IMG/VR virus record: IMGVR_UViG_3300045988_101743
Coordinates: 19,509 to 83,508 of that record
Reading direction: 5' to 3' (one strand)
Length of the DNA: 64,000 nucleotides
From: a virus
The translations under genes were made by a program, and so were the position numbers. Below, piece after piece: positions 3,128 to 38,401 of this stretch (within the stretch, counting starts at the first letter, position 1; every line of letters starts with the position of its first letter). The notes under the pieces were generated by a model. That model was not told where the DNA came from. It saw only the letters and a list, made by a program, of their open reading frames with translations, and did not search any database.

Positions 3128-4063
3128 TTAGCTAAACAACGCCAGTACCTGTTTGCTGATTTTCTTTCGAGCACAGATATAGTTTGACGTCATTGTGATG
3201 TTCGGTACATTTCCGCTTATGTGGCCCATCATGATGGCAATCTGCTCCAATGGGCAACCCTTGAGCGACAGGAGCGTTGCGAAGGTCCTGCGCCCCGTGT
3301 GTGTCGCAATGAACTGGTACTTCTTCCCGACCTTTGTCTTGCCGTTCGAGAACACGGACACCTCGTCGGTTATGCCGCATTTCCTGCACATGTCCCTAAT
3401 CGGTTCGTTTAGGTGGTCGTTACGAATGTTTCTCTCATTGTCGGCCCAATCGTCCACAAGGTATTGAAGAAGCCATCTGTGTACGGGCACAGACACCTCT
3501 ACGGGGTGTTTTTGTGGAACGTACGTAAGGTACTCTGTGCCGTCGATGGTGTGCAGGTTGGCGATCGTGAACCTTCGGCAGTCAACACACCTCGCGCCAG
3601 TAAGGCACTCGCGCATGAACATGAACTTGGCGTAACGCTCACGCTCGTTCATCGGCTGGTAGTTGTGCAGCCTCTTGAGCTCGGCGGACGTAAGGTACAC
3701 GTTCTGCGACGGAACCTTCTTGGACTTGAGGATTGTTGAGAAAGTCTTTGACTTGATGGGTTTCGTGGCCGAGTTCCTGTTGAGGATGGCCTTTAGCTCC
3801 GCGCATATAGTACGAACGCTGTTTGGCGACATCTCGGACAGCATATCCTCCTTTAGGTCGGACAGGGTGTCGTCGGTCAGGTCCTCCCACTCGGGAGTCC
3901 TTCCTATGATGTCCCTAAGCCTTACAAGCGTAGTGATCCTGCCTGGATGCTTGCGACACCACGTTCCCGAGAACGAATGCCAACGAGGGTTCTCTACGGT
4001 CAGGAACCCATGCTTGATAGCGGAGGAGTATTTCTTCCTCTGCTCTTCAGTTAGTTGTTTCAT
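3128..4063 (-). CDS. int: Tyrosine site-specific recombinase (phage integrase), 311 aa.
   Basis: The C-terminal catalytic region shows the R..H..R..Y pattern: HTGRRTFATLL...MMGHISGNV...SNYICARK. A TTGGTTAATA element lies at 4079-4088, upstream of the ATG at 4061-4063. Confidence 0.8.
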   Translation of the reverse strand: MKQLTEEQRKKYSSAIKHGFLTVENPRWHSFSGTWCRKHPGRITTLVRLRDIIGRTPEWEDLTDDTLSDLKEDMLSEMSPNSVRTICAELKAILNRNSATKPIKSKTFSTILKSKKVPSQNVYLTSAELKRLHNYQPMNERERYAKFMFMRECLTGARCVDCRRFTIANLHTIDGTEYLTYVPQKHPVEVSVPVHRWLLQYLVDDWADNERNIRNDHLNEPIRDMCRKCGITDEVSVFSNGKTKVGKKYQFIATHTGRRTFATLLSLKGCPLEQIAIMMGHISGNVPNITMTSNYICARKKISKQVLALFS

Positions 4064-4078
4064 GACTCATAATGGATA

Positions 4079-4089
4079 TTGGTTAATAT
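4079..4089 (-). promoter_or_regulatory. Conserved TTATTAACCAA early-gene upstream element (integrase copy).
   Basis: This copy lies about 16 nt upstream of the integrase ATG. It is one of at least 17 copies of the same 11-12-mer upstream of leftward genes. Confidence 0.5.
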
Positions 4090-4140
4090 ATGGCTCCGCA
4101 CACCTGTTTCACAAAGCGTGCGGATGTTGGCCAAACGCCC

Positions 4141-4641
4141 TTAGATGAGAGATACGGCTGCCGTGCCGGACAGCTTTCCCCTCTTCTTCTCAACAACATA
4201 CCCTCCCATTATGCGCAACATAGAGAGACTGTTCTCATAGAAAGGGTTGTCAACGATGATATATGTTGACGAATACAGCGTACGTTTTTTAATCTCTGAC
4301 GCATAATCGCTGAACCCTTCCGCTCCATAGTTGCGAATGCTGTATTTAATCCACTCGTCGAGGTCTATGTTCATGGTCTTCCAACCGCGTTCCCTGTCTT
4401 CGTCTGACAAGTTCCAGTATTCGTGACGGTCCCATCCGTACTCTCCGTCCTTCTTCATTCTCTCAACCTCTTCGCCAGTCTTGATGTCGACAAAACGAGT
4501 ACGTAGCACGACGAGCCTACTGTTGACGTCTCGCTCGGAGAAGTATCCGGCCACGGCGTTCATGAAGCCTGTTGTGTCAAACTTGTTCGGAACGAAACCC
4601 TTCTCCTTCAGAAGGTCTTTCGCCGTGATGATTTTTCCCAT
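4141..4641 (-). CDS. Hypothetical protein, 166 aa.
   Basis: ORF with ATG at 4639-4641 and upstream element AATGGTTAATA at 4659-4669. Confidence 0.55.
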   Translation of the reverse strand: MGKIITAKDLLKEKGFVPNKFDTTGFMNAVAGYFSERDVNSRLVVLRTRFVDIKTGEEVERMKKDGEYGWDRHEYWNLSDEDRERGWKTMNIDLDEWIKYSIRNYGAEGFSDYASEIKKRTLYSSTYIIVDNPFYENSLSMLRIMGGYVVEKKRGKLSGTAAVSLI

Positions 4642-4699
4642 AAATGCTTAGTTGTTTTAATGGTTAATATACGTTCGCAAAGGTAGGTAAATTATCTTA

Positions 4700-6139
4700 T
4701 AACAACCAACCTTTTTATCTCTTTAACATAATAAATTCCGTCTGGCTCACAGGTGTGCGCACACGGCGAAAATATAGGCGCACTCTGAGGGTAGTGTAGC
4801 GTTCCTGTACGTGTGTGGTGTGGAGTGTGAGACGGCACGGTTTAATGAAAGCGACAGCTTATTAAACGGTACCATAGCTCAGAGTCCACCGAATTGAGCC
4901 CTCCTTGTGCGCCTTCGGCTGCTATGCCGAATCCATGTGTCAGACGGCGCGCCGCATGACTATACTTCAATGACTAATTATGCGTGAGTCACGATGAAGG
5001 ATCGACGTCTGAGGGATACGAAGACGTCGATCTTGATTCAAGAGACTCATGCTTAAGATAATGTCGTCCTTCACAATGGAAAACTGCGGTTTTTGAATTG
5101 GTGGGCACGCTCAGACGGCGTGTAGCCTATCTGTACGTCATTGATACGCACCCGTTGCGTAGTGAAATGGTCCGCGTTCGATTTGCACGCGGACCATGAT
5201 CCGTAACAAACGGGGGCATTGAATTGTCCGTCCTTGCGTGTCCGTAGGGCTATCTGCTTGCTCCCCTCATTGACCTTGGCGCAACGCTATACTCAGTTGA
5301 TGTAAGCTGAGGGATAGACCCGGGTGAAAGGATGTCCGTTGGCATCAAGGAACCCGGGTGATACCCAGCTTTCATAAATGTGGTCAAACTTGGGAAACTA
5401 CCCATGCGTTTGGGTTTTCGCGATTGCAGGCGGCTTGGTACAGTCGTCTACTTGATTGTTTTGTGCAATACTCGCCAGAAGACCGACATAGAGGTCGTCT
5501 GGTTAGAGACTTGCTTGATAAATGATGTCGCTCGCCATCGCGCTTTGGCGGTGTACTCCGCCTATGGATTGCGAAACAGACTGGCGCATCGCTTTATTAG
5601 CTTGATATAACCCGCCTTCTGAAAGAGATGGTTCCTGAAATCGGACGTTCGGTAGAACATGCGTTTCAGTGCTCCATCTCTCTCCTTGAGAGGCGGCGTT
5701 ATTGAATTTGCCCGTTCCTCATCCATCACCGTGCGCCCGGTGCTCATAAAGGATCCACTCATGGCACATCCCGCATCGCATTACGTGTGTGATACGAATC
5801 CTGTGGGAATGACCGGATAATCCAACCTAAAGCCTCGCCGATAAGGCAGGCTTTGGCTCGGATGAGCCGGTTCACTCACCAGGACGCTAAATGTTGTGCC
5901 CGTCGTGAAGCGACCCTGCGGTGGGTTTGTGTCTTCCGTCATGTCGCGTTCCACATTGCAATACTGCGTTGATGTTGTGCGGCGTTGACACTGGCATCGT
6001 TAAGCCCGGTGTGGGTTTCAAGGATGCCAGTGGGAGGCCGTCTTCTTCCAGCGCGTTAGAGCTGGACCGAAGACGGACGTACGCCGCATGCTGAATATGC
6101 GACCATTCGGAAGACGGGCCCTGCGGTGGGTCACAACCA
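4700..6139 (-). ncRNA. Candidate large structured non-coding RNA or RT-associated template, directly 3' of the RT gene. It is called here only as an ORF-free, hairpin- and repeat-rich region with no assigned family.
   Basis: About 1.44 kb with no plausible ORF in a genome whose intergenic gaps are otherwise under 100 bp. Perfect 10-11 bp hairpins sit at about 5001-5033 and 5169-5198, and a two-tier hairpin at 6049-6087. A 13-nt direct repeat ccctgcggtgggt (5913-5925 and 6119-6131) flanks inverted gtcttccg/cggaagac. No TTGGTTAATA element occurs inside. The only upstream element available is that of the RT gene. Confidence 0.35.
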
Positions 6140-7405
6140 TTAGAGGTTGGCGACAAGCGCGCCGTACGCGGCCTTGCTTGTGCGTAGGGCCTTCTGGGCG
6201 CATCCGATTGACAGGAAGCCGCAAAGCTCCTTGTCGACCTTCGCCCTGTTGGCCTTGACGTTTCGGCCACGGCCACGGTCTATGCAACCTACGGCCTGTG
6301 TCTTGACGTACCCGAGGCCACCAACCTTCGTCTTGCCTGTGCCTACCGCACGTATGCAGTCCATGGCAAAGGCGTTGAGCTTGTCGATGTCCTCCTTGAC
6401 ATTGAGGACGGGAAGAACCTGTGTGGCCCACGAGAACTCACCGTAGCCCTTGTAGAGGTATCGGTTGACAGCGTTGATGGCTTTCGCCATCGTATTGCCG
6501 CGCTTCTTGATGGTCCTTCTCTCAATCTCCTTCTGGAAGGTCTTGATCCTCTTTGCGGAGAGTGAGATGCTCCTTCCCTTGATGGAATACCCGAGGAACT
6601 TGAACCAGTGGTCCGAGTCAAGGTATTCGACCTTCTTGGGATTGAGCGTCATGCCCATCTTGGCCAGCTCCTCCGTCATGATCACCATGGCCTCCTTGTA
6701 GTCCTTTCCGATGAACAGCGTGTCGTCAGAGTAGCGGACGTAGTATCCGCCGAGACGGGACAGCCTGTCATCGATATGGTACAGGACCACGTCGGCGAGC
6801 CATGAGGCAACGCTGCAACCCTGCTTTAACGACTGGTACTTCTCTTGTAGAACGCCTTCTGTGTCAAAATAGTAGTTGCAATGGTAGTAATCCCTGATGA
6901 CATCAACGAGAGCCGACTTACCGAACTTGTCCTCGACCTTGTCAAAGGCCCAGTCAACGAACGCAAGCGGCACCGTGTCGAAATACTTCGACAGGTCGGA
7001 CTTGAAGCCTATGACCGTACCGTTGGCGGAGGCTATCCTTGTGGAAACCTCCTGTACGACACGGCCACAACCCAGGCCCTTTTGGTAGGACTTGCAATTG
7101 GGATGCACCATCTCGGGCATAATCTCAAACAACAGGTCGTTTGCGATGCTGAGAAGAATGCGGTCGGCAGGCTCATTGATATAGACGGTACGGAACTCTC
7201 CGTTGTCCTTTGGTATGAGCGCCGTGTGTGGCGGCATGATCTTGTACTTTCCGTCACGTATTCTCCTATACATCTCAGCGCGCGCCTGTGGCGTAGTGAG
7301 CCTGTACATCGTGGCCTTGTCCATGTCCTTGTCCATGCCCTTCGCTATGGCGTATTGCCAACGCTCGGGCTCAAAGAACATCTGTAAGATTTTGTCTTCT
7401 TTCAT
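6140..7405 (-). CDS. Reverse transcriptase of the group II intron / retron / DGR superfamily (RT domains 0-7 plus thumb, no endonuclease domain), 421 aa.
   Basis: RT motifs identified: motif 1-2 (LIPKDNGEFRTVYINEPADRILL); motif 4, B (QGCSVASWLADVVL); motif 5, C (VRYSDDTLFIG, YxDD box); motif 6 (MGMTLNPKKVEYL); motif 7 (FKFLGYSI); thumb / domain X-like (AINAVNRYLYKGYGEFSW). A TTGGTTAAT element at 7413-7421 is shared with the other early genes. Confidence 0.85.
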   Translation of the reverse strand: MKEDKILQMFFEPERWQYAIAKGMDKDMDKATMYRLTTPQARAEMYRRIRDGKYKIMPPHTALIPKDNGEFRTVYINEPADRILLSIANDLLFEIMPEMVHPNCKSYQKGLGCGRVVQEVSTRIASANGTVIGFKSDLSKYFDTVPLAFVDWAFDKVEDKFGKSALVDVIRDYYHCNYYFDTEGVLQEKYQSLKQGCSVASWLADVVLYHIDDRLSRLGGYYVRYSDDTLFIGKDYKEAMVIMTEELAKMGMTLNPKKVEYLDSDHWFKFLGYSIKGRSISLSAKRIKTFQKEIERRTIKKRGNTMAKAINAVNRYLYKGYGEFSWATQVLPVLNVKEDIDKLNAFAMDCIRAVGTGKTKVGGLGYVKTQAVGCIDRGRGRNVKANRAKVDKELCGFLSIGCAQKALRTSKAAYGALVANL

Positions 7406-7412
7406 AATTCTA

Positions 7413-7421
7413 TTGGTTAAT
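7413..7421 (-). promoter_or_regulatory. Conserved early-gene upstream element (RT copy).
   Basis: Reads cataattctattggttaat on the plus strand, i.e. ATTAACCAATAGAATTATG on the minus strand, immediately 5' of the RT start codon. Confidence 0.5.
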
Positions 7422-7478
7422 GTTAAACATGTGCCCTACTCTTTATGTAGGGCTTAGGGCTACGACACATTCAAGCGC

Positions 7479-7970
7479 TTAGGCCTTTTGGGTTCTTGCC
7501 GCAAAAAGGAGTGATTTCCATTCGTCATAGGAAACATACAACTCGAATAAGTCGTACTTCTCCATACCGCACTCCTTTCTCTTTGCCACAGCGGTACGCC
7601 TGTTGTCGCAAAAAACATACACGTCGTTGTTGTCCCTGAAATACCAGTAGCACACGCCAGGGCCATTCGTGAGGAATATCTCCTTGTCGCGCTCCCACAA
7701 CTGCTCTCTAAGGAGTAGTCTCTGATTCCGAATGCACGTTCTGTTGATGTCGTCGGCTTTAAGTGTAGTCACGAACTTGTGCTTACAACGCTTCTCAATC
7801 AGCTTGAGAAGGTTGGGGCGCCATGCCTCGTTGTCCACAAACGGGAAGTCTCTGTTCTGGAATGAATACTCCGTACCGCTGACGCTTACGTGTATCTCAC
7901 TTTTGTTCTCAATGGGCGCGTTCTTGACAGCGTCAAGGAGGCTTGAAATCTCTGCTTTTGTCATATTCAT
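7479..7970 (-). CDS. Hypothetical protein, 163 aa.
   Basis: ORF with ATG at 7968-7970 and upstream element at 7979-7990. Confidence 0.55.
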   Translation of the reverse strand: MNMTKAEISSLLDAVKNAPIENKSEIHVSVSGTEYSFQNRDFPFVDNEAWRPNLLKLIEKRCKHKFVTTLKADDINRTCIRNQRLLLREQLWERDKEIFLTNGPGVCYWYFRDNNDVYVFCDNRRTAVAKRKECGMEKYDLFELYVSYDEWKSLLFAARTQKA

Positions 7971-8211
7971 AAATTTTTAATGGTTAATAAGAGAGCCGGC
8001 CATGAGCTAACATGACCGACTGTTTTGGCCCAATGTCGCAGGCATGGCGCCTGTCTTTAGTCTTTCGATCTAATAAGCTGCCTTCTGTGAAGGCTGCTGG
8101 ATACTTCACACTAAAGGTGTTACCTTGTGTGAGTATCCACCGCCTTCGGTTTGAGAAGCTTATGTGAATTTTTGCCTGCCCACACTGGGGCGCTTGGCGT
8201 TTAGGTGAGCG

Positions 8212-9213
8212 TTACTTCTTTCTCCACTCGGCAATCTTCTTGTCCACGTCGATGCCAGAGTCCTCGATGAGTTTCTTCATGACGCCGATCATGCGCCAGC
8301 CTTCAACGACATACTCGCTGGCCTTCAACTCAACAAAGTCGAGCGACTTCTTCTCGTTGAGGCCGGTGAAGCGAGCGCCATGGAACATGATGAGGTTTCG
8401 CATGGTGAAATAGGCGCCAGAACCCTTGTACGCGTTGATGAACGAACCACTGATATTCGTGCTTCTCGCAAGGCGCTTGCGGTGCTTGTTGAAATCGCAC
8501 ACCAGCTCGTACAGCTTGCGCGGAGACTGCTCGTAGTTGAACTTCACGGCGTAACGGCGAATGTCGTCATACAACTTCTTGTTGAGGTCGCTCACGAAGA
8601 TGTTCCTGCCTCCAATGCGCACATAGGGAACACCCTTGCACGTGTGCTTGTAGACTTTCTTCCTCTCGGAGTTGAGGCGGTACATGAGTTTGCCCTCCAC
8701 GTAATCCTTGAGAGTGTTGAGATAATCTGACGCCATGACGGATATCGTTGGCCCGTTGAACCACTGGTTGCGACGCATAAAGTTGGCCATGTCGCCATGC
8801 TTGTGCATCTTCATCTGAGCGCGAAGCTCATCCTCGACCATGCGCCACTGGTACTCATAGCCTCGCTCCTGAAGGAGCTGGTTGAAATTCTTACCGGACT
8901 TCATGTTTCTGAGGATATGGAACATCTGTGCCATGACCCATCTGCGGAATAGCTTGTAGTGGTTGATGTAACCACCGCCAGCAATCTTCGTGTAGACAGG
9001 GTCGTCGTCGTCAACCATCACAGGAACTCCGTCGACGACCTTGACAACCATCTCCTCTCCCATTGGAAAGTAGTTTGATGTGTCAACGCCAGCCGCCTTG
9101 AGCGCCTCGATGCGAGCGGCTGCTCCCTTGGGCTTGTAAACCTTGGCGCTTGCGCCCTGACCGTTCATCTCTGACAATGTGAACTCACCTGAAATCATTA
9201 CGTTTCTTTTCAT
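8212..9213 (-). CDS. Hypothetical protein, 333 aa.
   Basis: Long ORF with ATG at 9211-9213 and upstream element at 9230-9240. Its 33-nt upstream sequence is identical to that of gene 15429..15965. Confidence 0.6.
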   Translation of the reverse strand: MKRNVMISGEFTLSEMNGQGASAKVYKPKGAAARIEALKAAGVDTSNYFPMGEEMVVKVVDGVPVMVDDDDPVYTKIAGGGYINHYKLFRRWVMAQMFHILRNMKSGKNFNQLLQERGYEYQWRMVEDELRAQMKMHKHGDMANFMRRNQWFNGPTISVMASDYLNTLKDYVEGKLMYRLNSERKKVYKHTCKGVPYVRIGGRNIFVSDLNKKLYDDIRRYAVKFNYEQSPRKLYELVCDFNKHRKRLARSTNISGSFINAYKGSGAYFTMRNLIMFHGARFTGLNEKKSLDFVELKASEYVVEGWRMIGVMKKLIEDSGIDVDKKIAEWRKK

Positions 9214-9229
9214 AATTGCTAAAATTTAG

Positions 9230-9240
9230 TTGGTTAATAA
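9230..9240 (-). promoter_or_regulatory. Conserved early-gene upstream element; 33-nt block identical to 15963-15995.
   Basis: cataattgctaaaatttagttggttaataatgt occurs identically at 9211-9243 and 15963-15995. Confidence 0.5.
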
Positions 9241-9284
9241 TGTTAAAAACATGAAGAGGAACGGGGTGTGAACCCCATGCCTCC

Positions 9285-9563
9285 TTAGGCTGTCCTGTAA
9301 ACTGCATCACATTCTATAATGGCCTTGTATTTCTTAGGGAACTTGGACCATCCATTGTACGCCTTGATAACTTGCCTCGACGACCACCATGTGACTGCCT
9401 CCTCGTCAATGTGGAAGCATTTTAGCTTATCCGTATCGTCATACAGAACCCACTCGCCTGATGCAAGCACGCCTTCCCTTAGATGAATGGCATGGCCGCC
9501 AGACTCCGAATACCGACGCACAAGGTCGTCAACATAGTGGTAGTCGCAATAAATCTTTCTCAT
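9285..9563 (-). CDS. Hypothetical protein, 92 aa.
   Basis: ORF with ATG at 9561-9563 and upstream element TTGGTTGGTTAATAAT at 9575-9589. Confidence 0.5.
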   Translation of the reverse strand: MRKIYCDYHYVDDLVRRYSESGGHAIHLREGVLASGEWVLYDDTDKLKCFHIDEEAVTWWSSRQVIKAYNGWSKFPKKYKAIIECDAVYRTA

Positions 9564-9632
9564 AATACGTTCTTTGGTTGGTTAATAATGCTGACAGGAA
9601 CGGCCACGCTAATGGCCGCACCCGGAAAAGGC

Positions 9633-10097
9633 TCAATCGTTTGAATCCACCCATTTGCGAAGGATGACGAAATCCCTGTCGTTCTTGGACTGCCAGAACC
9701 ACGTTCCGTACTCGTCCTTCCATTTCAGGGCACCGGTCATGACCGCTGCAAGCACCAATGATTCAAGCATGAACCTCGCAAACTCTCGCGGCTCGCCGTA
9801 AATCATGTCAGCGTCCGACAACTCCTTCTCGGGCAAAGCCTTGAAATAGGTCCTGCGGTGCGACTCCGAGCGCTCTGATGGCACGGACCGCTTGTACGCC
9901 TCGTAGCGAACCTCAAGGCACTTGATGATGTCGTGCCCCTCAAAATCCTCCTCGCTAACACCGAGGGGAAGGTCGTGCTTTCCATCCTTGATGAGATACT
10001 TACCGTCAATGATGAGGGATCGCCTCTCAAGGTTGACATAGAACTTTGCGCCATTGCTGACGAGCTCCTCTGTCTCCTTTCCGAAAATCTTATCCAT
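9633..10097 (-). CDS. Hypothetical protein, about 154 aa. The ATG at 10095-10097 is preferred over the GTG start at 10106 used by the ORF track.
   Basis: ORF with ATTATG start context and upstream element TTGGTTAAT at 10112-10120. Confidence 0.5.
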   Translation of the reverse strand: MDKIFGKETEELVSNGAKFYVNLERRSLIIDGKYLIKDGKHDLPLGVSEEDFEGHDIIKCLEVRYEAYKRSVPSERSESHRRTYFKALPEKELSDADMIYGEPREFARFMLESLVLAAVMTGALKWKDEYGTWFWQSKNDRDFVILRKWVDSND

Positions 10098-10161
10098 AAT
10101 AATCACGTTTGTTGGTTAATATGCGCCAGTCACGCCGTATTCCGGCATGGCTGGCTGTTGG

Positions 10162-10374
10162 CTAAATGTTGTCGGAGACAACACGCTTGTCTGTCGCCAT
10201 CGCCACGCGCTTATGACGCATGGCGCCGGCCTCATAGACCGTAACATAACGGTACTCCTTGGCGAGTTCAATCATCCTCTTTCTCGCCTCCTGTCTTGTC
10301 AGCAAGGCTGAAGTTTGCTCTACGCCAAGACCAAGTCTGAAAACATACACCCTCATAGCGTTCATTACCACCAC
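10162..10374 (-). CDS. Hypothetical small protein, 70 aa.
   Basis: ORF overlapping the upstream gene's stop by 10 nt. Likely co-transcribed; no element of its own. Confidence 0.35.
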   Translation of the reverse strand: MVVMNAMRVYVFRLGLGVEQTSALLTRQEARKRMIELAKEYRYVTVYEAGAMRHKRVAMATDKRVVSDNI

Positions 10375-10905: not shown

Positions 10906-10946
10906 AATTCAAAATTTGATTGGTTAATAACAAGATCCGCATTAAG

Positions 10947-11111: not shown

Positions 11112-11193
11112 AATTTGTAGTTTTGGTTAATATTATGTGGGTGGAAGGCCATAGGCCAACCACCCGTAGGCTCAAAGTCGCGCAAATGCAGCC

Positions 11194-15965: not shown

Positions 15966-16010
15966 AATTGCTAAAATTTAGTTGGTTAATAATGTGCGAT
16001 ACCCCATCGC

Positions 16011-19404: not shown

Positions 19405-19700
19405 TTAGTGCGGACAGGATACTCGATATGGCCGAGGACAAGGCGGCTGTCGAGACGTGGATGATGACCATCGCCCACGGGATAGAGACAGGTGTGATGC
19501 CGCGCCATTTCATCACATTTCATGATGATTGGTTGACGGACTTGGCGCAACAGGTTGAGGACGGCTTGAAAAGCTTGGTGTCAAGATGCCGAAAGACGAT
19601 TAGTTGTCATATATACAACAAGACGCCACGAGCATCACTGCCCACGGCGCCCATGAATATTAACCAATTAAATTTATACGTTTTATGGATACGTATGTGA
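19401..19700 (+). CDS. Hypothetical protein, about 99 aa (start MISADRIL; ATGA overlap with the upstream stop).
   Basis: ORF; the in-frame ATG at 19401 is preferred over 19374. Confidence 0.35.
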   Translation: MISADRILDMAEDKAAVETWMMTIAHGIETGVMPRHFITFHDDWLTDLAQQVEDGLKSLVSRCRKTISCHIYNKTPRASLPTAPMNINQLNLYVLWIRM

Positions 19701-24543: not shown

Positions 24544-24617
24544 AGCGGAGTGGCAGCAGTGGTAGCTCGCTTGCCTCATGAGCAAGAGGTCGTTGGTTCG
24601 ATTCCATCCTCCGCAAC
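24544..24617 (+). tRNA. tRNA-like gene with anticodon CAU (Met / initiator / Ile2-type); non-canonical D-arm.
   Basis: T-arm GTTGG-TTCGATT-CCATC. Anticodon stem-loop CTTGC-CTCATGA-GCAAG is perfect, with anticodon CAT at 24577-24579. The acceptor stem GCGGAG/CTCCGC has 6 bp and an A1:A72 mismatch. The D-stem shows only 3 bp and position 8 is G. No encoded CCA. Confidence 0.5.
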
Positions 24618-30611: not shown

Positions 30612-33600
30612 ATGGCATCAGGAAACATGGGTGACTTGAGTATGACACTCACTCTCAAGTCAAGGATGGAGGACGAGGTAAAGAAGATTGTTGACCAGCT
30701 CAACAAACTCGACGAGTCAGGCAAGAAAGCGCAAGGGGCCCTTGAAAAAATACGAGACTCTGTAAGTGGTGTCAAGGGAGCTGACGGTCTGAAACAGATT
30801 GAAAAGGATTTGAATAGTATCCAACGAAAAATAGATAGTATTCAAAAAGACGATTCAAAGAAAAAAGCTGCCAAAGACCTTGAAACTCTCAGAGTCGCTT
30901 ATGAAAGAGTTTTGGGCATCATGAAAGAGATGCGCAGCCAGGGAATAGAAGGCTTGAACATCTTTCCCAACAGCGTATCCAAGTCCGCAAACGAAGCAGA
31001 GATAGCTTACCGAAAACTTTACAACACCATACAGGATATATCAAAGCTGCATGGTGAGGGATTGTCTATGCTTGGTGTTGGCGCGACAAACAATATTAGG
31101 CAAGTGTTGTCTGACCTTGAAAAATACAAGACAACGCTCGACCAGATACGTTCCAACGGAGGGTTTCATCCCGTCGCTGGATATACAGCATCCGACATAA
31201 CGAAATCCTCTGGATACGTCCAGGCTCTCGACGATGCAAAGCGCTATTACAAGGAGCTAAAGGAGGCTATGCGCTTGGCAGAGGAGGAGGAGAAGCGCAA
31301 TGTCGGCATTGTCGAGAGCCTTATCCAGCAGAGGGTAAAGGCAAGGGAACTTGCTGCCCAAAAGGAAGCGGAGGCCGAGAAGCAAAGACAAGAGCAGGCC
31401 AAGGTTTCTGCACAGATTGCACAGGAGAATGCAATGAGCGAAATCAAGTGGAACGAGCAGAAATCGAAGGCTTTCTCTGAAGCACTACGTAGGCAGATGC
31501 AGGCCTCCGTTGAGGCCGAGAAGAAAGGGCAAGTATCTCTGTTTGCCAATGGGTTTGATACGAGCGTGCTCGAAAAACGCCTTGCGATATTGAACCGAAT
31601 GAAGGAAATACAGGAGAAGCTTGAGTTCTATCGCCCAAAGCTACAATACTCTTGGCTTGACTATCAGACGAGCGCAAAGTTCGGAAACGCCAACGATCCT
31701 TCTATAAGGCACAAGGAAGACGATCTTCAGCGTTTGAGGAATATTGTTGCTGACTTGGAGTCGGAGTTCAATAAGATCGGCGGAAACGACGTATTTAGGA
31801 ACATCGACAATCAAATCAAAAGCATTGAACAAACGATAGCTCGTTTGAAGGATTCTACCGGTTCTGTGAATCTTGGAAAACTACTTGGCTTGGAAAACAA
31901 GTCAACAGACGAATTTAGGGTTGCCAAAGAAGCAGCCATGGCTACAGAGGCACATGTAAAGAGGCAGAATGAGCTAACTGCCGCTTTTGAGAAATATTTC
32001 CGTGTCCAAGAGCAGGTTGAGGCAGCGGAGAAAAGGCTTGCAGAAGCTACCGCAAGAACAAATCAGGCTCGGCGAGAGGCCATAGCCGCATCAAGGCAAC
32101 AGGCGGAATCTCTTGTTCGTAACAGAGTTAAGGAACTTGAAGCTCAAAGGAAGCAACTACAGGAATTGTTCGGTAGTGGAAAGAGTGTGCTTAACACGCA
32201 AGAACTATCACAGGTACAACGAGCCTTCTCTCAAATTACGCAAGAAATAAACACACTGCGTAGTGCGATGAATAACCTTGGTGGCTATTCCATAAAGGAC
32301 TTATTCTCCATTGGAAGGGGAACGAGTGACTATACACCGATGATAGGAAACATGAGAACTGTCATCGACCAGAAGCAAAAGGCTATTGAACTTGAAAGGC
32401 AGCATCGCAATGAACTCGCAGCAACCATAGCAAGCGCAAACAAGGAGGCCGAGCGCATGAGAGGAATTATTGGTGACATCAAGTCGTTGTTTTTACAAGG
32501 AGGGCTTGTCTTTGGCGCGCAGCAATTCTTCAATTCCATCGTACAGACTGGCGGCGAGATTGTACAACAGCACATCGCATTGCGTTCTATCATTGGCGAC
32601 GTACAGAAAGCTGACGAATTATTTGCACAAACCCAGCAGCTCGCCTTGCAGTCACCTTTTAAGTTTGGTGAATTGAACAGAGATGTCAAGCAACTTGCTG
32701 CGTTTGGAGTGGAGGCGAGCGAGTTGTACGACACCACAAAACGTCTCGCTGACATTTCCTCTGGACTTGGCGTTTCGTTCGAGCGACTTGGTCTTGCGTA
32801 TGGTCAGGTAAAGGCTCGTTCATGGCTCGACGGAAAGGAACTTAGGCAGTTCGCTTACGCCGGTCTTCCTCTGTTGCAGAAAATTACAGACCTCTACAAC
32901 GCAGAGGGCAAGAATGGGCGGAGGAACTATACAAACTCTGATGTCAAGAAGATGATCACCAACAGACAGGTCAGCTTTGAGGACGTCCAGAAGGTTCTTT
33001 GGCAAATGACGGACAAAGGCGGACAATTCTACAACATGCAGTTCGTCTTGTCTGAGACACTCCTTGGAAAATGGAACAAGCTCATCGACGCATGGGACAT
33101 CATGCTTGGCAAGTTCGCAGAAGGCAGGAGCGTTATTGGGGGAACATTCAAATACGCCATTGACGGAACGACGGCATTGGTGCAGACTCTCGATAAGATT
33201 TCCCCAGCATTGCTGTCTCTTGGAGCCGTATCTGTCTCGCGTATGATTGGACGAGCAGCGATGTCTGGAATAGGAGTCAACTCTTTGCAGAGGAGATTTA
33301 TGTCTGGCGTCAACGAGCAGTTGAAGATATATGCCGTCAAGCAACAGGAGGCTGTTGTAGAGGGCAAGATAACACAGCAGCTTGCCCAGCAGAATGTCTT
33401 CAAGCGTGCGTCGCTTCTTTCAGACCGACAGAGTCAACAGGCAGCTTACAACAGGATGGCAATTGAAGGAAAGTTGTCGGTCCTCCAGATGCAGACTCTT
33501 GTCGGGAAGAAACAACTTTCTGCGGAAATCATTAAGCAACTCACCTTGATGGGGCAGATAACCGCAAGGCAGGAACAAATAATCCTTGGAGGAAGCCGAA

Positions 33601-36600
33601 TGGCCGCAGTGTGGAACGGAGCTACGACGAAGCTCGGGGGAATGATGAGCTTCTTCGGCGGATGGTGGGGACTTGCGATTACTGGTATAACGTCATTGTT
33701 CCTTGGTTATTCTCAATGGTCAGACAAGGTAAAGGAGGACGAGAAGAGCCTTATGGATGGAGCAAGGCAACGCTCAAAGAACTATGGAGAGTTTTTGAAT
33801 GGGCTTGGAAACAAGGGTGATGTCGACTTGTCTACACAGGTGGAGTCCATGAAGGATATTCTTCAGAACTCAAACGACTATACAGATTCCATCAAGGAGC
33901 AAGTCGAGAACGCCTACGACCTATCAGAGCAATACGACATCCTTAAAGAGAAGATTAAGGAATCCAAGGATGTTAACGACGCACTTGTTAACAAATACGG
34001 TCCGTCGGTAAGCAATGCCACCGCCTCTACCGGTCTTGAGAACGACTCGCTGTTCGATTTGTTTGGCCTCGATACTCCAGGATGGCTCAAGTGGCTTAAT
34101 GGTCTTGGCAACGACTCCATTGAGAAGAATGCCGAGGACGCGCAAACGTCATTGCAGAAGTACCAGGTGATGTTTGACGAGCTTGACACGAATACGAAGT
34201 CTAAGATGCAGGACTTTATCAATACGCTCATCAGTGGCAATGCGGAGCTGTCAAGACAGATAAAGGGTCTTCCTATCGCTGAACAAGTGAGGATGCTCGC
34301 GGCTATTGGAGGCGATGATTGGGAAAGGTTTGTTGATCGTTTCGTTTCCGGCAGCGAGATGACGCAGGAGCAGTTCAAGGAACTGTCCAACAGGGCCAAG
34401 GAGTCAAGCGGAGACATCTCCGAAATAATGTATGACGACATTCCAAAGGCGCTTGATTCATTGAGGAAAGACCTTGGAATGTCACAGGAGCAGTTCAAGG
34501 AATGGGCCAAGAAGAATCCCGTCATCTTTGCTTCGATGATGGATAAGATTGCGCAGAAGGCGAACATAACGAGCAAGACAATCCTTTTCTACTTCCACTC
34601 TGCGATAAGCGAGTTGATGAACATGGATTTCTGGCCTGGCAGCAAGAGCGGAGGAGGAAGAAAGAAATACAGAACGGGCCTTGAGGGGTTCTCGAAGATG
34701 ATATTCGAGAACGCTATACTTGACGGCACTCTTACAGGAAAGAAGAAAAAGGGTGAGTTCTGGGTCTCGGAATACGTAAATGCCCTGAAGAAGGTTCAGG
34801 CAGGAACGTATGAGGAGACAGGAAAGAACATACAGAGCAAGCTCAAGGATGCGAGAAACGAGCTTGATATGCAGGATACTGCCGCCAAGAAGCTAAACTC
34901 CAAGAGAAGGGAGGCTTTTTACAAGAGTAGCGATTATTTGAAGGCCAAGAGGGAATACGAGCTATGGAGCGACATAGCCAAGCATGGGGGTGTATCGGAC
35001 GATCTTGGCAAGAATAAGGTTACTGGTAACTATGCCAAAGAAAAGGGAAAGAACTTGGATGCGGAGGCCAGTAAGGCTGACAGGGAGCATCTTAGAGCCT
35101 TGCAGGCACGTCTGAAGCTCATCAAGGACGCTTATAGTATGTATAAGCAATACTACGAGATGCTACATGACGAGAAGGAGGCGAGCCGCATTGTCGCCGA
35201 CAGGTTTAAGGACCAAGGCTTGTCGAATGATGACGTAGCGAAGATACGTTCAGAGAAGGACTTGCTGTCTCTTGTGCAGAACTATATCAGTAGAGTGCGC
35301 GCATGGACGCCGAAGCGGCCACTGGAGATGAAGGATAGCAAAGATGCCGCCATATCAGAAGGCGTGAAGGAGACTGACGACATCAGGTATCGTGCGGCCA
35401 AAGAGGCTCTTGACGACTATACGAACGCCACAGCGCTCGACCTTGACATGATGACAAAGCAGTGGGATGCCTTCCAAAAGGTTCTCGCTTCAACTGGAAG
35501 CTACGACCTTGCTGCGGAGATTTCCGGAATATCCAAAGACAAGAATGCAATAGACAGGAATATTTATCCTACTGGAACAATGAGTAGCGAGTACGTGTCT
35601 CGGTTCTCAGACTTCCTCAGGAATTATCTTGATTCCGTATTGTCATCATCCGGGAAAATTGGTGGGGAAACCATTCTTGGTGACAATTACGACAAGGTCG
35701 CAGGAATGACAGATCAGCAAATAGAAAAGTATGCTGGGTCTTTGTTAAGCAAGAACGCTCCACAGAAAATCGGAGGATTCATCAGCGCTCTGAAGAAGCT
35801 CCGTGATTTAATGACAAACACCGAGTATAAGGATGGCATCGAGGCTTACACAAACCTTATCGAAAAGGTTATTACACAGACGGCTAAGATTGCGAGAAAC
35901 AAGGCGGATTTTGAGAATGCGAAGAGCAAGATTATGGCCGCATACTCAAATGGAACTATCGACAAAGGCCAGAAGGACGATGCGCTGTCAATCGCCAGAG
36001 CCGTCATGAACGACAAGGATTTGAAGGCTTCTGACTCGTACAGCCAATTCATGGACCAGATAACATCCATGACCGAGAAGGCTGCCAACGGTATGCGAGA
36101 CAAGATTTTGGCCAACCTTGACGAACAATACTCAAAGGGGCTTATCTCCGCGAGTGATTACGCTAACGGCATCCAAAAGGTAAACGACCAAATGGAGGCG
36201 TTCATAAGTAGTAAGAGCCCTGCGCAGGCTTTGCTGACAGGAGGGCTTGAGGGCTTTTTGAATGACCGAAAGCAGAAGGTGAAAGACAAGATTCGCGCTG
36301 ATATGGAGAATGGAGGCGGTGAATATTGGGGTCTTGATCCCGAAACGGGGAAGCTCGGTCTCACAAAGAAGGGAAAGAAAGCCTCTGAAGGAACCGCAAA
36401 GATTGCGTCCAAGCTCAACTTTGTCGGTTCGATCATTGGAAGCGTAAACGAGAACATTCAGTCATACAAGAAACTTGAGGAAACCTGGACGAACGCCTTT
36501 GGAGAAGGTTTGAAGAACAGCGGATTCTCTCGGTTCATGGATGGACTCATGGATGTTTCTGGAGGTGTTCAGGAGGCGTGGTCCTCTCTATTGAAGGGAG

Positions 36601-37870: not shown

Positions 37871-38401
37871 TTGTTTACAGTGCTTCTTGCAAGTTTATAC
37901 ATTTATTCGTATATTTGTGAAACATTTATACAATCTCCATACATCATGAAGTATTATAGGTATTTTATACAAAAAGAGTCGAATGGTTCGCCTGTCAAGG
38001 AGACTGGTGAGGATTTTGATATTTTTGAAATGGAGAGCAGTTTTTACGGAGGTAATGAGGCTAAGGATGTCCCTAAGCGCACATGGTATGACGAGCATGG
38101 AGATGATGAGTTTGTACCAGACACGCTCATGATGCAAGCCAAGGAACACTCCGTGAAGTTTGGCTACAAGGGAGACAAGTTCTCTGCAAACGCAGCCATC
38201 AAGTCATTCATCAACTATCTGTCAACTGGCGGAAAGATGAAAATATATGACGAGTACAACCAAATCGGACGTCAACACGTAAGGTTCAAGTCGCTCAATG
38301 ACAGCGCAGAGCTGTTCCGTGACGACGATGGAGATATTCTCGTATTTACTGTCAACTTTAAGGTGAACGACCCAGTCACCGACATAACGCTAAAGAAATG
38401 A
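37871..38401 (+). CDS. Distal tail / baseplate candidate, 176 aa.
   Basis: ORF between the tape measure and the fibre gene. Confidence 0.35.
   Translation: MFTVLLASLYIYSYICETFIQSPYIMKYYRYFIQKESNGSPVKETGEDFDIFEMESSFYGGNEAKDVPKRTWYDEHGDDEFVPDTLMMQAKEHSVKFGYKGDKFSANAAIKSFINYLSTGGKMKIYDEYNQIGRQHVRFKSLNDSAELFRDDDGDILVFTVNFKVNDPVTDITLKK

What the first reader, a model, noticed from the sequence alone, without database searches (positions are those of the whole stretch)
4700..7430. Early-promoter-driven reverse transcriptase followed by a 1.44 kb ORF-free, highly structured region: candidate RT-ncRNA system of unassigned type
The 421-aa protein has RT motifs 1-7, a YSDD box and a group II/retron-like thumb, but no endonuclease domain. 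It carries the same TTGGTTAAT upstream element as every other early gene, so it is expressed as ordinary early phage cargo. Directly 3' of its stop lie 1440 bp with no credible ORF, in a genome whose other gaps are tens of bp. This region is packed with perfect hairpins (GATCGACGTCT...AGACGTCGATC at about 5001-5033; ATGGTCCGCG...CGCGGACCAT at about 5169-5198; a two-tier hairpin at 6049-6087), the direct repeat acccgggtga (5308, 5352) and the 13-nt direct repeat ccctgcggtgggt. A canonical group II intron is excluded: only 55 bp lie upstream of the ORF, leaving no room for domains I-III. A canonical retron is excluded because msr-msd normally lies upstream of the RT and is under 300 nt. A canonical DGR is excluded because no TR/VR partner is visible and the fibre genes are more than 30 kb away. 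This leaves a DRT-like RT+ncRNA defence/anti-defence module, a circularly permuted or degenerate group II-like ribozyme, or a new RT-templating RNA. All three are inference.
Basis: partly seen in the sequence, partly recalled or inferred. Interest (0 to 1): 0.85.

Follow-up and report, generated by a model that had tools for sequence, protein, structure and literature searches.

The report
Phage UG27 reverse transcriptase with RNA array

Summary
A 421-aa YSDD reverse transcriptase (6140-7405, minus strand) is followed by about 1.5 kb with no credible ORF and many hairpins.

It is not of unassigned type. The RT matches the PADLOC RT_UG27 model end to end (E 3.4e-217). The ORF-free stretch is not one long RNA. 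It is a tandem array of eight 145-200-nt units on the RT strand, and a ninth solitary unit lies at about 8023-8202. Each unit has:
- a small hairpin whose loop forms a pseudoknot;
- a two-part basal stem;
- an internal loop carrying UUYA and AUC-N7-UANAG;
- a variable central hairpin.

In about 40 related loci the structure covaries: 82.9% of cells are paired against 53% in shuffles, and the unmodelled pseudoknot is 98% paired.

This architecture, and the production of 50-100-nt cDNA hairpins, was reported for UG27 systems by Mestre et al. 2022 and Li et al. 2026 (bioRxiv). The tested systems include an Alistipes putredinis locus whose RT is 66% identical to this one.

Verdict: a new member of a known kind. 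Its function is still unknown. Interest is low to moderate.

The parts
9633..10097 (-). sORF, the small accessory protein of the UG27 system (154 aa from the ATG at 10097)
8212..9213 (-). bORF, the large accessory protein of the UG27 system (333 aa)
8023..8202 (-). Solitary ncRNA unit just downstream of bORF. Motif AUCGAAAGACUAAAG lies at 8069-8055 and UUCA at 8168-8165. The predicted cDNA template is 8067-8168.
   Evidence: The motif matches exactly. Covariance model R1 gives E 2.7e-6, and this unit was not in the seed. A single unit after bORF recurs in related loci. As DNA the central segment folds with z -8.1.
6140..7405 (-). UG27 reverse transcriptase, 421 aa, with a YSDD active site
   Evidence: PADLOC RT_UG27 matches at E 3.4e-217 over positions 2-420 of 420. 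The next best models are RT_UG26 at 1.2e-34 and Drt9 at 1.7e-26. Pfam finds RVT_1 only. The RT is 66% identical to that of the Alistipes putredinis DSM 17216 locus.
5931..6132 (-). Array unit 1.
- Small hairpin CCC/GGG with loop ACCGCA, 6127-6122.
- P1: 6115-6099 with 5947-5931.
- UUCA: 6095-6092.
- Central region forked into two hairpins.
- Motif AUCAACGCAGUAUUG: 5973-5959.
- Pseudoknot: CCGCA with UGUGG, 5955-5951.
Evidence: Annotated by eye from the sequence and a constrained fold. The motif has one mismatch. Model R1 did not detect this unit, probably because its central part is 125 nt long and forked.
5754..5926 (-). Array unit 2.
- Small hairpin ACCC/GGGU with loop ACCGCA (the second copy of the 13-nt repeat).
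- UUUA: 5891-5888.
- Motif: 5793-5779.
- Pseudoknot: CCGCA with UGCGG, 5775-5771.
   Evidence: R1 hit 5746-5937, E 7e-5, not in the seed. Sequence reading.
5564..5742 (-). Array unit 3.
- Small hairpin CACCG/CGGUG with loop GGCGCA.
- UUCA: 5706-5703.
- Motif AUCAAGCUAAUAAAG: 5606-5592.
- Pseudoknot: GGCGCA with UGCGCC, 5588-5583.
   Evidence: The motif matches exactly. R1 gives a partial hit at 5579-5646, E 9.5e-4.
5419..5562 (-). Array unit 4, the shortest.
- Small hairpin GGCGG/CCGCC with loop AGUACA.
- UUUA: 5522-5519.
- AUC at 5456, followed by a motif 4 nt shorter than the consensus.
- Pseudoknot: GUACA with UGUAC, 5442-5438.
- P1: CGCGAU/AUCGCG.
   Evidence: R1 hit 5416-5562 is weak, E 0.04. 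The annotation is by eye. An earlier assignment of the motif to 5483 (reasoning) was wrong.
5261..5415 (-). Array unit 5.
- Small hairpin ACCCA/UGGGU with loop AACGCA.
- UUUA: 5378-5375.
- Motif AUCAACUGAGUAUAG: 5301-5287.
- Pseudoknot: CGCA with UGCG, 5283-5280.
   Evidence: The motif matches exactly. R1 hit 5262-5415, E 7e-13, but this unit was in the seed.
5098..5260 (-). Array unit 6.
- Weak or absent small hairpin.
- UUCA: 5223-5220.
- Motif AUCAAUGACGUACAG: 5145-5131.
- Pseudoknot: UAGCC (5252-5248) with GGCUA (5127-5123).
   Evidence: The motif matches exactly. R1 gives E 3e-21, but this unit was in the seed.
4933..5093 (-). Array unit 7.
- Small hairpin AAAA/UUUU with loop CCGCAG.
- Motif variant GUCAUUGAAGUAUAG: 4974-4960.
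- Pseudoknot: CCGCA with UGCGG, 4956-4952.
- No exact UUYA; the nearest is UUAA at 5056-5053.
   Evidence: R1 hit 4942-5068, E 2.7e-7, but this unit was in the seed. Sequence reading.
4777..4931 (-). Array unit 8, the last.
- Small hairpin UUCGGC/GCCGAA with loop AUAGCA.
- Motif variant ACCACACACGUACAG: 4819-4805.
- Pseudoknot: UAGC with GCUA, 4800-4797.
- UUCG instead of UUCA: 4893-4890.
   Evidence: R1 hit 4771-4941, E 3.8e-21, but this unit was in the seed. Sequence reading.
7413..7421 (-). Upstream element ATTAACCAA (TTGGTTAAT on the + strand), ending 7 nt before the RT start codon. Further copies lie before bORF (9230-9238) and sORF (10112-10120).
   Evidence: There are 9 copies in the window against 0.45 expected, and 0 of 100 shuffles reach 9. 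Its function as a promoter or a translation signal was not tested.

Best explanation
The locus is a complete UG27 reverse-transcriptase system (class 2 of the UG/Abi, DRT-related RTs). It is carried by a temperate tailed phage whose relatives are prophages of Segatella/Prevotella and other Bacteroidales.

**Gene order (minus strand).** sORF, then bORF, then one ncRNA unit, then the RT, then an array of eight ncRNA units. Two non-conserved small ORFs are inserted among these.

**Anatomy of a unit.** Each unit folds into:
- a small hairpin whose loop base-pairs with the 4-6 nt that lie 3 nt after the AUC-N7-UANAG motif, forming a pseudoknot;
- a two-part basal stem interrupted by a conserved AAG/UGA internal loop;
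- an asymmetric internal loop with UUYA on the 5' side and AUC-N7-UANAG on the 3' side;
- a central hairpin that varies in both sequence and length.

**Mechanism, taken by homology from Li et al. 2026.** The RT, together with sORF and bORF, starts cDNA synthesis at the AUC of each unit. It copies the central hairpin and stops just past UUYA. Here that would give nine different ssDNA hairpins of about 69-125 nt, most of them beginning 5'-GAT.

**Shown here.** RT family membership, presence of both accessory genes, the unit anatomy, covariation of the structure in relatives, and the hypervariability of the central hairpins.

**Inferred.** Transcription of the array, cDNA synthesis in this phage, and the cDNA ends.

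**Unknown.** What the cDNA hairpins do.
For: **RT family.** RT_UG27 matches at E 3.4e-217 over its full length.

**Motif.**
- In the window, the AUC-N7-UANAG motif (0-1 mismatch) occurs on the RT strand at 5973, 5793, 5606, 5301, 5145, 4974 and 4819, spaced 155-187 nt apart (305 nt across unit 4, whose motif is 4 nt shorter), and again at 8069.
- In 80 related loci it occurs 573 times on the RT strand and 33 times on the other strand. Spacing peaks at 150-189 nt and at multiples of that.

**Covariance model R1** (built without the pseudoknot).
- In the window it finds 8 of the 9 units, one of them only weakly (E 0.04). Four of the eight were not in its seed.
- It gives 191 hits in 42 IMG/VR loci and 89 hits in 24 bacterial-genome loci. 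All lie on the RT strand. They start at the RT stop or just after bORF.

**Covariation on 127 distinct units.**
- 82.9% of cells are paired, against 53.2% in shuffles and 34-44% when the partners are slid.
- All 33 pairs change on both sides.
- The pseudoknot helix, which was not modelled, is 98.1% paired. It switches between UA/GC, UA/CG, GC/AU and similar pair types.

**Accessory genes.** sORF and bORF co-occur with the RT in 102 of 110 loci.

**Link to experiment.** The same model finds an array directly after the RT of Alistipes putredinis DSM 17216. The preprint shows RT-dependent cDNAs for a system from that species.

**Predicted products.** All nine predicted cDNAs fold as stable DNA hairpins.

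**Literature.**
Against: - No expression or cDNA data exist for this phage.
- Unit 1 was not detected by the model, and unit 4 only weakly (E 0.04). Both were annotated by eye.
- Only 4 of 9 units carry the exact published motif. Four differ at one position (AUC becomes GUC or ACC; AG becomes UG), and one has a motif 4 nt shorter.
- Units 7 and 8 lack an exact UUYA.
- The small hairpin is weak in unit 6 and unclear in the solitary unit.
- The base of the central hairpin pairs at only 62.9% in the alignment, because of register problems caused by variable length.
- The alignment used for pair counts was fitted to the model's structure, except for the pseudoknot.
- The model's E-values are rough.
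- The mechanism rests on one preprint, and on systems whose RT is only 56-66% identical where I could check.
Confidence: 0.9

Rival explanations
1. The 1.5 kb is one large structured RNA, for example a degenerate or circularly permuted group II-like ribozyme or another giant ncRNA, that works with the RT as a retroelement.
For: The region is long, ORF-free, rich in hairpins and next to an RT.
Against: - Rfam finds no group II, GOLLD, ROOL, HEARO or other family here. This holds at gathering thresholds and at E<=10.
- The region resolves into eight repeats of one 145-200-nt structure carrying the same motifs.
- Related arrays differ in unit number and share no sequence.
- The RT scores far better as UG27 than as any intron-type RT, and it has no maturase or endonuclease domain.
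Confidence: 0.02
2. It is a retron: the RT copies part of an msr-msd RNA into a branched msDNA that guards a toxin or effector.
For: An RT plus an adjacent structured RNA yields a short ssDNA hairpin. Retron RT models give weak hits (RT_Ec107-like, E 2.2e-10). The preprint notes a match to cd01646, a retron-type RT domain.
Against: - The best retron model scores about 200 orders of magnitude worse than UG27.
- The template is a multi-unit array downstream of the RT. It is not a single upstream msr-msd flanked by a1/a2 inverted repeats.
- Rfam retron msr families give no hit.
- The partner proteins are sORF and bORF, which have no recognisable effector domain.
Confidence: 0.02
3. It is a diversity-generating retroelement: part of the ORF-free region is a template repeat, and its mutagenised cDNA rewrites a variable repeat in a target gene.
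For: The RT lies in a phage. The adjacent non-coding template is hypervariable between close relatives.
Against: - None of the predicted cDNA segments matches anything else in the 64-kb window or in 110 related loci beyond chance 11-12-mers.
- No DGR-type RT model appears among the top-ranked PADLOC hits.
- The 13 single substitutions between near-identical arrays show no adenine bias; 4 of the 13 are at A.
Confidence: 0.01
4. Same molecular system, but its role is defence. Expressed from the prophage, the cDNA hairpins or the RT complex protect the lysogen against other phages, as the DRT relatives do.
For: - The RT belongs to the UG/Abi family, many of whose groups are defence systems.
- The locus sits two genes from the integrase, at the accessory end of a temperate phage.
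- Relatives are integrated prophages in Segatella, Alistipes and Bacteroides genomes.
Against: - Mestre et al. found no defence-island enrichment for UG27 and predicted a non-defence role.
- No effector or toxin domain is recognisable.
- No phenotype has been reported.
Confidence: 0.25
5. Same molecular system, but its role is counter-defence or host takeover. The diverse ssDNA hairpins act as decoys or sponges for host nucleic-acid-sensing immunity or DNA-binding proteins during infection.
For: - The system is phage-borne and widespread in gut phages.
- CRISPR spacers target the intergenic region.
- The hairpin parts evolve much faster than the proteins. Between near-identical phages the array differs at 3.4% of columns and the RT at 0.32%, and 44 of 51 differing columns lie in the templated parts. 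This fits an arms race.
- The cDNAs are not complementary to phage or host sequences, which argues against guide-like targeting.
Against: - This is purely circumstantial.
- The one specific version I could test, restriction-site decoys, is not supported. The cDNA regions hold 9 six-bp palindromes against 12.3 +/- 3.5 in shuffles.
- Fast change in the hairpins could simply reflect weak constraint.
Confidence: 0.3

Closest known systems
UG27 reverse-transcriptase systems of gut phages (Mestre et al. 2022, NAR / bioRxiv 10.1101/2021.12.02.470933; Li et al. 2026, bioRxiv 10.64898/2026.09.22.753630)
   Same: - The RT family.
- The YSDD active site.
- The two domain-less accessory proteins.
- A long intergenic array of roughly 150-nt units on the RT strand.
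- The UUYA and AUC-N7-UANAG motifs bracketing a variable central hairpin.
- A small basal hairpin with a pseudoknot.
- An extra unit in a neighbouring intergenic region.
- A Bacteroidota phage or prophage setting.
- No complementarity of the templated parts to other sequences.
   Different: Only details differ.
- Gene order is sORF-bORF-unit-RT-array, a minority arrangement also seen in L001, L007, L081 and L086, rather than RT-array-sORF-bORF.
- Two non-conserved ORFs are inserted: p92 at 9285-9563 and p163 at 7479-7970.
- Several units carry motif variants (GUC or ACC for AUC, a motif 4 nt shorter, UUCG or UUAA for UUYA).
- Unit 1 has a forked 125-nt central part, longer than the 50-100-nt products reported.
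DRT2 (UG2) and DRT9 (UG28), class 2 UG/Abi defence RTs with ncRNA templates
   Same: They belong to the same RT class, have no fused domains, and have an adjacent structured ncRNA that is reverse transcribed.
   Different: - Their ncRNA is single and lies upstream of the RT.
- According to the preprint's summary, their products are long or concatemeric cDNAs, not short hairpins.
- They need no sORF or bORF.
- The HMM scores are far weaker: Drt9 at 1.7e-26 and Drt2 at 1.4e-11, against 3.4e-217 for UG27.
Retrons
   Same: An RT plus a structured RNA produces an abundant short ssDNA with a hairpin. The template stem is variable while the recognition elements are conserved.
   Different: - A retron has one msr-msd unit, not an array.
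- Branched 2'-5' priming from msr is not known for UG27.
- The accessory proteins are different.
- The RT clade is different.
CRISPR arrays (analogy of form only)
   Same: Tandem units combine a conserved scaffold with variable inserts. Close relatives gain and lose units.
   Different: The variable part is a self-complementary hairpin with no detectable match to foreign DNA. The output is cDNA, not guide RNA. No Cas genes are present.

Membership tests
UG27 RT system | The RT falls in the UG27 group of class 2 UG/Abi RTs | tested here: met
   PADLOC RT_UG27 matches at E 3.4e-217, 719 bits, positions 2-420 of 420. The runner-up, RT_UG26, scores 1.2e-34. No phylogeny was built.
UG27 RT system | Catalytic YSDD motif | tested here: met
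   The translation of 6140..7405 contains ...YYVRYSDDTLFIG....
UG27 RT system | A co-located small accessory protein (sORF; cluster 346/337 of Mestre et al.) | tested here: met
   Window 9633-10097 is 50-51% identical (E about 1e-42 to 4e-45) to the small ORF found next to bORF in 76 of 80 loci. It has homologues in 102 of 110 loci. It was not compared directly with the authors' HMMs.
UG27 RT system | A co-located large accessory protein (bORF) | tested here: met
   Window 8212-9213 has homologues in 102 of 110 loci on the RT strand. It is 40% identical to the A. putredinis copy.
UG27 RT system | A tandem array of roughly 135-170-nt ncRNA units on the RT strand in the long intergenic region | tested here: met
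   Eight units lie at 4777-6132, with motif spacing of 150-187 nt, plus one unit at 8023-8202. Units 1-3 are somewhat longer (173-202 nt) than the published modes.
UG27 RT system | Conserved AUCNNNNNNNUANAG on the 3' side and UUYA on the 5' side of the central hairpin | tested here: met
   The motif is exact in 4 units, has one mismatch in 4 and is a shortened variant in 1. UUYA is present in 7 of 9 units. In 127 related units A, U and C are 99-100% conserved and U, A, A and G are 93-100% conserved.
UG27 RT system | A basal small hairpin and a pseudoknot | tested here: met
   In the relatives the pseudoknot is 98.1% paired and all 5 pairs covary, although it was not in the model. The small hairpin is 84.8% paired. 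In the window the pseudoknot pairing is visible in all 9 units. The small hairpin is clear in 7 units, weak in unit 6 and unclear in the solitary unit.
UG27 RT system | RT-, sORF- and bORF-dependent synthesis of 50-100-nt cDNA hairpins | not testable with these tools
   This is known only from the preprint, for five other systems. Here the predicted templates are 69-125 nt and fold as DNA hairpins.
Group II intron | Ribozyme domains I-VI flanking or containing the RT ORF, and an RT with maturase (X) and often En domains | tested here: not met
   Rfam gives no intron hit even at E<=10. Pfam finds RVT_1 only.
Retron | A single msr-msd with flanking inverted repeats and a retron-clade RT | tested here: not met
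   The best retron RT model scores 2.2e-10 against 3.4e-217 for UG27. There is no Rfam msr hit. The architecture is an array.
DGR | A template repeat / variable repeat pair with adenine-specific differences, and a DGR-clade RT | tested here: not met
   No second copy of any unit exists in the window or in related loci. There is no adenine bias in the variation. No DGR-type model appears among the top-ranked RT hits. The rest of the phage and host genome could not be searched.

The most novel reading that the evidence does not exclude
The array may diversify itself. The cDNA hairpins, being near-palindromic single strands, could occasionally anneal back to the locus and be incorporated, as in retron-style recombineering. 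That would rewrite or flip the central hairpins and generate an evolving library of ssDNA hairpins.

**Observations that leave this open.**
- In a contig with an identical RT protein, the 28-nt apical hairpin of unit 4 (5475-5502) is replaced by its exact reverse complement.
- A second, independent 34-nt hairpin inversion lies in another array (L019 against L020).
- Between near-identical phages, 44 of 51 differing array columns fall in the templated parts, as indels, clustered changes and an inversion that all preserve the hairpin.

**The more ordinary explanation.** Template switching at quasi-palindromes during DNA replication, combined with weak constraint on the hairpin sequence, would produce the same pattern.
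Probability: 0.05. Interest if true: 0.8.

Novelty: new member of a known kind. Interest (0 to 1): 0.3.

Why it matters
As a discovery it adds little. The RT group, its accessory genes, the RNA array and its cDNA products are already described, and this locus fits that description feature by feature.

It has three smaller uses.
- It independently confirms the published unit architecture, including the pseudoknot, using a model built from scratch in a Segatella/Prevotella phage clade.
- It gives exact, testable predictions for nine cDNA products in this phage.
- It shows that, between phages with identical RT proteins, change is concentrated in the templated hairpins, including whole-hairpin inversions. 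This bears on the open question of what the cDNA hairpins are for and how the arrays diversify.

The function of UG27 systems, which are common in human-gut phages, remains an open and interesting problem. This window does not resolve it.

Tried and rejected
1. **Rfam.** I scanned the whole window at gathering thresholds and 4500-7500 at E<=10. Only a tRNA at 24544-24616 and a chance snoRNA-like hit came up.

2. **INPHARED phages.** Megablast of 4000-9300 found no match.

3. **Paralogous units with MAFFT.** Direct alignment placed the 3' halves correctly but scrambled the 5' halves and the central hairpins. I therefore set the structure by hand. The base of the central stem remained poorly registered (62.9% paired).

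4. **Unit 4 motif.** I first placed it at 5483 with two mismatches. That was wrong. The pseudoknot partner shows that the AUC is at 5456, followed by a motif 4 nt shorter.

5. **Orthologous units across phages.** Alignment was impossible: the array has no blastn similarity to 80 loci whose RT genes are 72-75% identical.

6. **Guide-like targeting.** The predicted cDNAs match nothing else in the window or in 110 loci.

7. **Restriction-site decoys.** Palindromes are not enriched in the cDNA regions.

8. **Shared hairpin cassettes.** The stem pattern of the unit-7 hairpin is absent from IMG/VR. It matches one unrelated metagenome contig by chance.

9. **DGR-like adenine mutagenesis.** There is no adenine bias among 13 substitutions.

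11. **p166 and p163 as system parts.** I rejected both. p166 (4141-4641) is found in 4 of 110 related loci and p163 (7479-7970) in 1 of 110.

Full report
**1. What is there**

The minus strand of 4000-10200 carries, in order of transcription:
- a 154-aa ORF at 9633-10097;
- a 92-aa ORF at 9285-9563;
- a 333-aa ORF at 8212-9213;
- a 241-nt gap;
- a 163-aa ORF at 7479-7970;
- the 421-aa reverse transcriptase at 6140-7405;
- 1498 nt with no credible ORF, at 4642-6139;
- a 166-aa ORF at 4141-4641;
- a tyrosine integrase at 3128-4063.

The RT contains YSDD and only an RVT_1 domain. One repeat coordinate is 10 nt off.

The window is a tailed phage. It encodes a terminase, a portal, a major head protein, a tape measure, a tail fibre and a primase.

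**2. The RT is UG27**

Against PADLOC models the RT matches RT_UG27 end to end, at E 3.4e-217 over 420 of 420 positions. The next models are RT_UG26 (1.2e-34), UG17, Drt9 (1.7e-26) and, far below, retron, CRISPR-associated and other RT models. Rfam finds no known RNA family in or near the region, even at E<=10.

**3. What the literature says**

Mestre et al. 2022 defined UG27 as a class 2 UG/Abi RT. They found it common in human-gut phages of Bacteroidetes and Firmicutes, with two associated proteins of unknown function and a predicted ncRNA in the long intergenic region. They found no defence-island enrichment.

Li et al. (bioRxiv, 24 Sep 2026) showed the following:
- The intergenic region is a variable array of units of about 150 nt, with modes at 149 and 167 nt and a 135-nt class that lacks the pseudoknot.
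- Each unit has a main hairpin interrupted by an asymmetric internal loop, a small hairpin at its base and a pseudoknot.
- Five systems expressed in E. coli make 50-100-nt ssDNAs.
- These cDNAs start at the AUC of AUCNNNNNNNUANAG and end after UUYA.
- Production requires the YSDD site, and both accessory ORFs in the two systems where they were deleted.
- The role of the cDNAs is unknown, and they have no obvious complementarity to phage or host sequences.

**4. Testing that description on this window**

*Motif and spacing.* The motif, with at most one mismatch, occurs on the minus strand at 5973, 5793, 5606, 5301, 5145, 4974 and 4819, and again at 8069 in the gap after the 333-aa ORF. A further unit lies between 5606 and 5301. 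Its AUC is at 5456 and its motif is 4 nt shorter. I recognised it through its pseudoknot partner.

*Fold.* Constrained folding and reading of the sequence give the same plan for every unit:
- a small hairpin with a 6-nt loop;
- an outer P1 stem, an AAG/UGA internal loop and an inner P1 stem;
- a 5' loop carrying UUYA;
- a variable central hairpin (P2);
- the AUC motif;
- 3 nt later, 4-6 nt complementary to the small-hairpin loop;
- the 3' strands of P1.

*Pseudoknot.* The loop and its partner differ from unit to unit but stay complementary: GGCGCA/UGCGCC, CCGCA/UGCGG, CCGCA/UGUGG, CGCA/UGCG, UAGC/GCUA, GUACA/UGUAC and UAGCC/GGCUA.

- The 13-nt repeat is the identical small hairpin of units 1 and 2.
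- The perfect hairpins at 5000-5032 and 5167-5197 are the P2 tips of units 7 and 6.
- The two-tier hairpin is one branch of the forked P2 of unit 1.
- The ACCCGGGTGA copies are the two arms of the P2 of unit 5.

**5. Related loci and covariation**

*Relatives.* Eighty IMG/VR loci encode RTs 76-80% identical to this one. Thirty loci in bacterial genomes encode RTs 56-78% identical. These come mostly from Segatella copri, Prevotella, Leyella, Alistipes, Bacteroides and Muribaculaceae, with a few from bins labelled Firmicutes or Faecalimonas.

*Sequence divergence.* blastn aligns the RT gene at 72-75% and the 333-aa ORF at 66-70%. Nothing in the array aligns.

*Motif in relatives.* In those 80 loci the motif occurs 573 times on the RT strand and 33 times on the other strand. 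Spacing peaks at 150-189 nt and at multiples of that.

*Covariance model.* I built R1 from 20 locus units and 4 window units, with a hand-set structure that left out the pseudoknot.
- In the window with filters off it finds, all on the minus strand, 4771-4941, 4942-5068, 5098-5261, 5262-5415, 5416-5562 (weak, E 0.04), 5579-5646, 5746-5937 and 8023-8202. It finds nothing convincing elsewhere.
- Unit 1 is missed, probably because its central part is long and forked.
- In 42 IMG/VR loci it gives 191 hits and in 24 genome loci 89 hits. All lie on the RT strand. They start at the RT stop codon or just after the large accessory gene.

*Pair counts.* On 127 distinct aligned units:
- 82.9% of cells are standard pairs, against 53.2 +/- 0.6% in shuffles and 34-44% when the partners are slid by 1-3 columns.
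- All 33 pairs change on both sides.
- The pseudoknot helix could not have been favoured by the model. It is 98.1% paired and uses two to three pair types at each position.
- Outer P1 is 96.4% paired, inner P1 89.0% and the small hairpin 84.8%.
- The base of P2 is only 62.9% paired. I attribute this to register errors in a stem of variable length.

*Conserved single-stranded positions.* A, U and C of the motif are 99-100% conserved, and UA.AG 93-100%. The AAG/UGA loop inside P1 is 72-95% conserved.

**6. The accessory genes**

The 333-aa ORF has homologues on the RT strand in 102 of 110 loci, so it is bORF. The small ORF directly upstream of bORF in those loci matches window 9633-10097 at about 50% identity (E about 1e-42 to 4e-45), so that is sORF.

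The usual order is RT, array, sORF, bORF, one unit. The window has the rotated order sORF, bORF, unit, RT, array, as do L001, L007, L081 and L086.

p92 (9285-9563) is found in 5 of 110 related loci, p163 (7479-7970) in 1 and p166 (4141-4641) in 4, so none is part of the system.

**7. Link to experiment**

The genome scan recovered the Alistipes putredinis DSM 17216 locus (L106). Its RT is 66% identical to the window's, its sORF 49% and its bORF 40%. R1 finds five units directly after its RT. The preprint shows RT-dependent cDNAs for an A. putredinis system.

By homology, the window should yield nine cDNAs. They correspond to the + strand of 5971-6095, 5791-5891, 5604-5706, 5454-5522, 5299-5378, 5143-5223, about 4972-5056, 4817-4893 and 8067-8168. 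All fold as DNA hairpins far better than shuffles, with z from -3.9 to -8.1. cDNA synthesis in this phage is inferred, not shown.

**8. Attempts to get at function**

- The predicted cDNAs match nothing else in the window or in the 110 loci.
- Six-bp palindromes are not enriched.
- The unit-7 hairpin is not shared with other phages in IMG/VR or in the metagenome set.
- Variation shows no adenine bias.

So I can add nothing firm to 'function unknown'. I rate a counter-defence or decoy role and a prophage-defence role as about equally likely. Both rest on context alone.

**9. Microevolution (new here, small numbers)**

Two public contigs encode the identical RT protein and are 98-99% identical to the window over about 8 kb. 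The fraction of differing alignment columns varies by region:

| Region | Differing columns |
|---|---|
| RT | 0.32% |
| sORF | 1.1% |
| bORF | 2.2% |
| Array | 3.4% |
| Solitary unit | 6.2% |

Of the 51 differing array columns, 44 lie in the templated central hairpins. The changes are:
- a 16-nt tip deletion in unit 8;
- a 3-nt insertion in unit 5;
- a clustered change in unit 3;
- replacement of the 28-nt apical hairpin of unit 4 (5475-5502) by its exact reverse complement.

All variants still fold as hairpins.

A scan of 2674 locus pairs found one more such inversion, 34 nt long, in the array of L019 against L020. Template switching at quasi-palindromes during replication is the ordinary explanation. 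An RT- or cDNA-mediated process is not excluded, but nothing here requires it.

**10. Verdict**

However, it is a canonical member of the UG27 system, which is already described in structure and biochemistry. It extends well beyond the coordinates given. The '1.44-kb structured region' is an array of eight small RNAs. I rate novelty as a new member of a known kind and interest as 0.3.

Noticed in passing
window 4079-4087, 7413-7421, 9230-9238, 9578-9586, 10112-10120, 10920-10928, 11123-11131, 15982-15990 (+ strand); 19659-19667 (- strand): TTGGTTAAT occurs 9 times against 0.45 expected. Eight copies read ATTAACCAA on the minus (coding) strand. For the five genes checked (integrase, RT, bORF, p92, sORF) they end 7-16 nt before the start codon. 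Variants ATTAACCAT precede p166 and p163. The element sits too close to the ATG to be an obvious -10 box. Whether it is a promoter or a translation signal is unknown.
   Followed up: partly
window 5475-5502 (unit 4 apical hairpin) against L112 5904-5931; also L019:6161 against L020: Between contigs that encode the identical RT protein, a whole 28-nt hairpin is replaced by its exact reverse complement. A second, 34-nt, hairpin inversion was found in another array. These were the only 2 cases in 2674 locus pairs.
   Followed up: partly
window 4642-6139 and 7971-8211 against L112 and L113: Among near-identical phages the array and the solitary unit differ at 3.4% and 6.2% of columns, against 0.32% in the RT gene. 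Of the 51 differing array columns, 44 lie in the parts predicted to be copied into cDNA. Three scaffold changes keep a pair or improve it: G6124A and G5711A each turn G.U into A-U, and C5408U keeps a pair as U.G.
   Followed up: partly
window 7479-7970 (p163) and 9285-9563 (p92), minus strand: Two small ORFs of unknown function are inserted inside the UG27 locus, between the solitary unit and the RT and between sORF and bORF. p163 is found in 1 of 110 related loci and p92 in 5. p163 differs at 4.9% of columns between near-identical contigs and is split into 37 + 119 aa in L113.
   Followed up: partly
alignment A2 columns 40-42 and 291-293; e.g. window 5235-5233 / 5113-5111 and 5071-5069 / 4942-4940: The internal loop that splits the basal stem is conserved as AAG opposite UGA (72-95% per position in 127 units). 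This looks like tandem sheared G-A pairs and could be a protein-binding site. I did not see it mentioned in the sections of the preprint that I read.
   Followed up: no
window 3128-4063 (-): A tyrosine integrase (Phage_integrase, E 4.5e-7; PHROG integrase, 1.5e-14) lies two genes downstream of the array, so the phage is probably temperate. The closest RT relatives in bacterial genomes are in Segatella copri, Prevotella and Barnesiella assemblies.
   Followed up: partly
window 24544-24616 (+): A tRNA gene with anticodon CAU (Rfam tRNA, 47 bits) lies in the divergent region between the terminase gene on the minus strand and the structural genes on the plus strand.
   Followed up: no
window 30612-37826 and 38398-45963 (+): Two very large ORFs of 2404 and 2521 aa. 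The first has a tape-measure match. The second has collagen-like and tail-fibre matches.
   Followed up: no
window 7994-8021 (-) and 4700-4735 (-): A terminator-like hairpin (11 pairs, then a U-rich tail) follows the solitary unit. An A/U-rich hairpin, AAAGGUUGG...CCUACCUUU, follows the last array unit. These may mark the 3' ends of the two ncRNA-containing transcripts.
   Followed up: no
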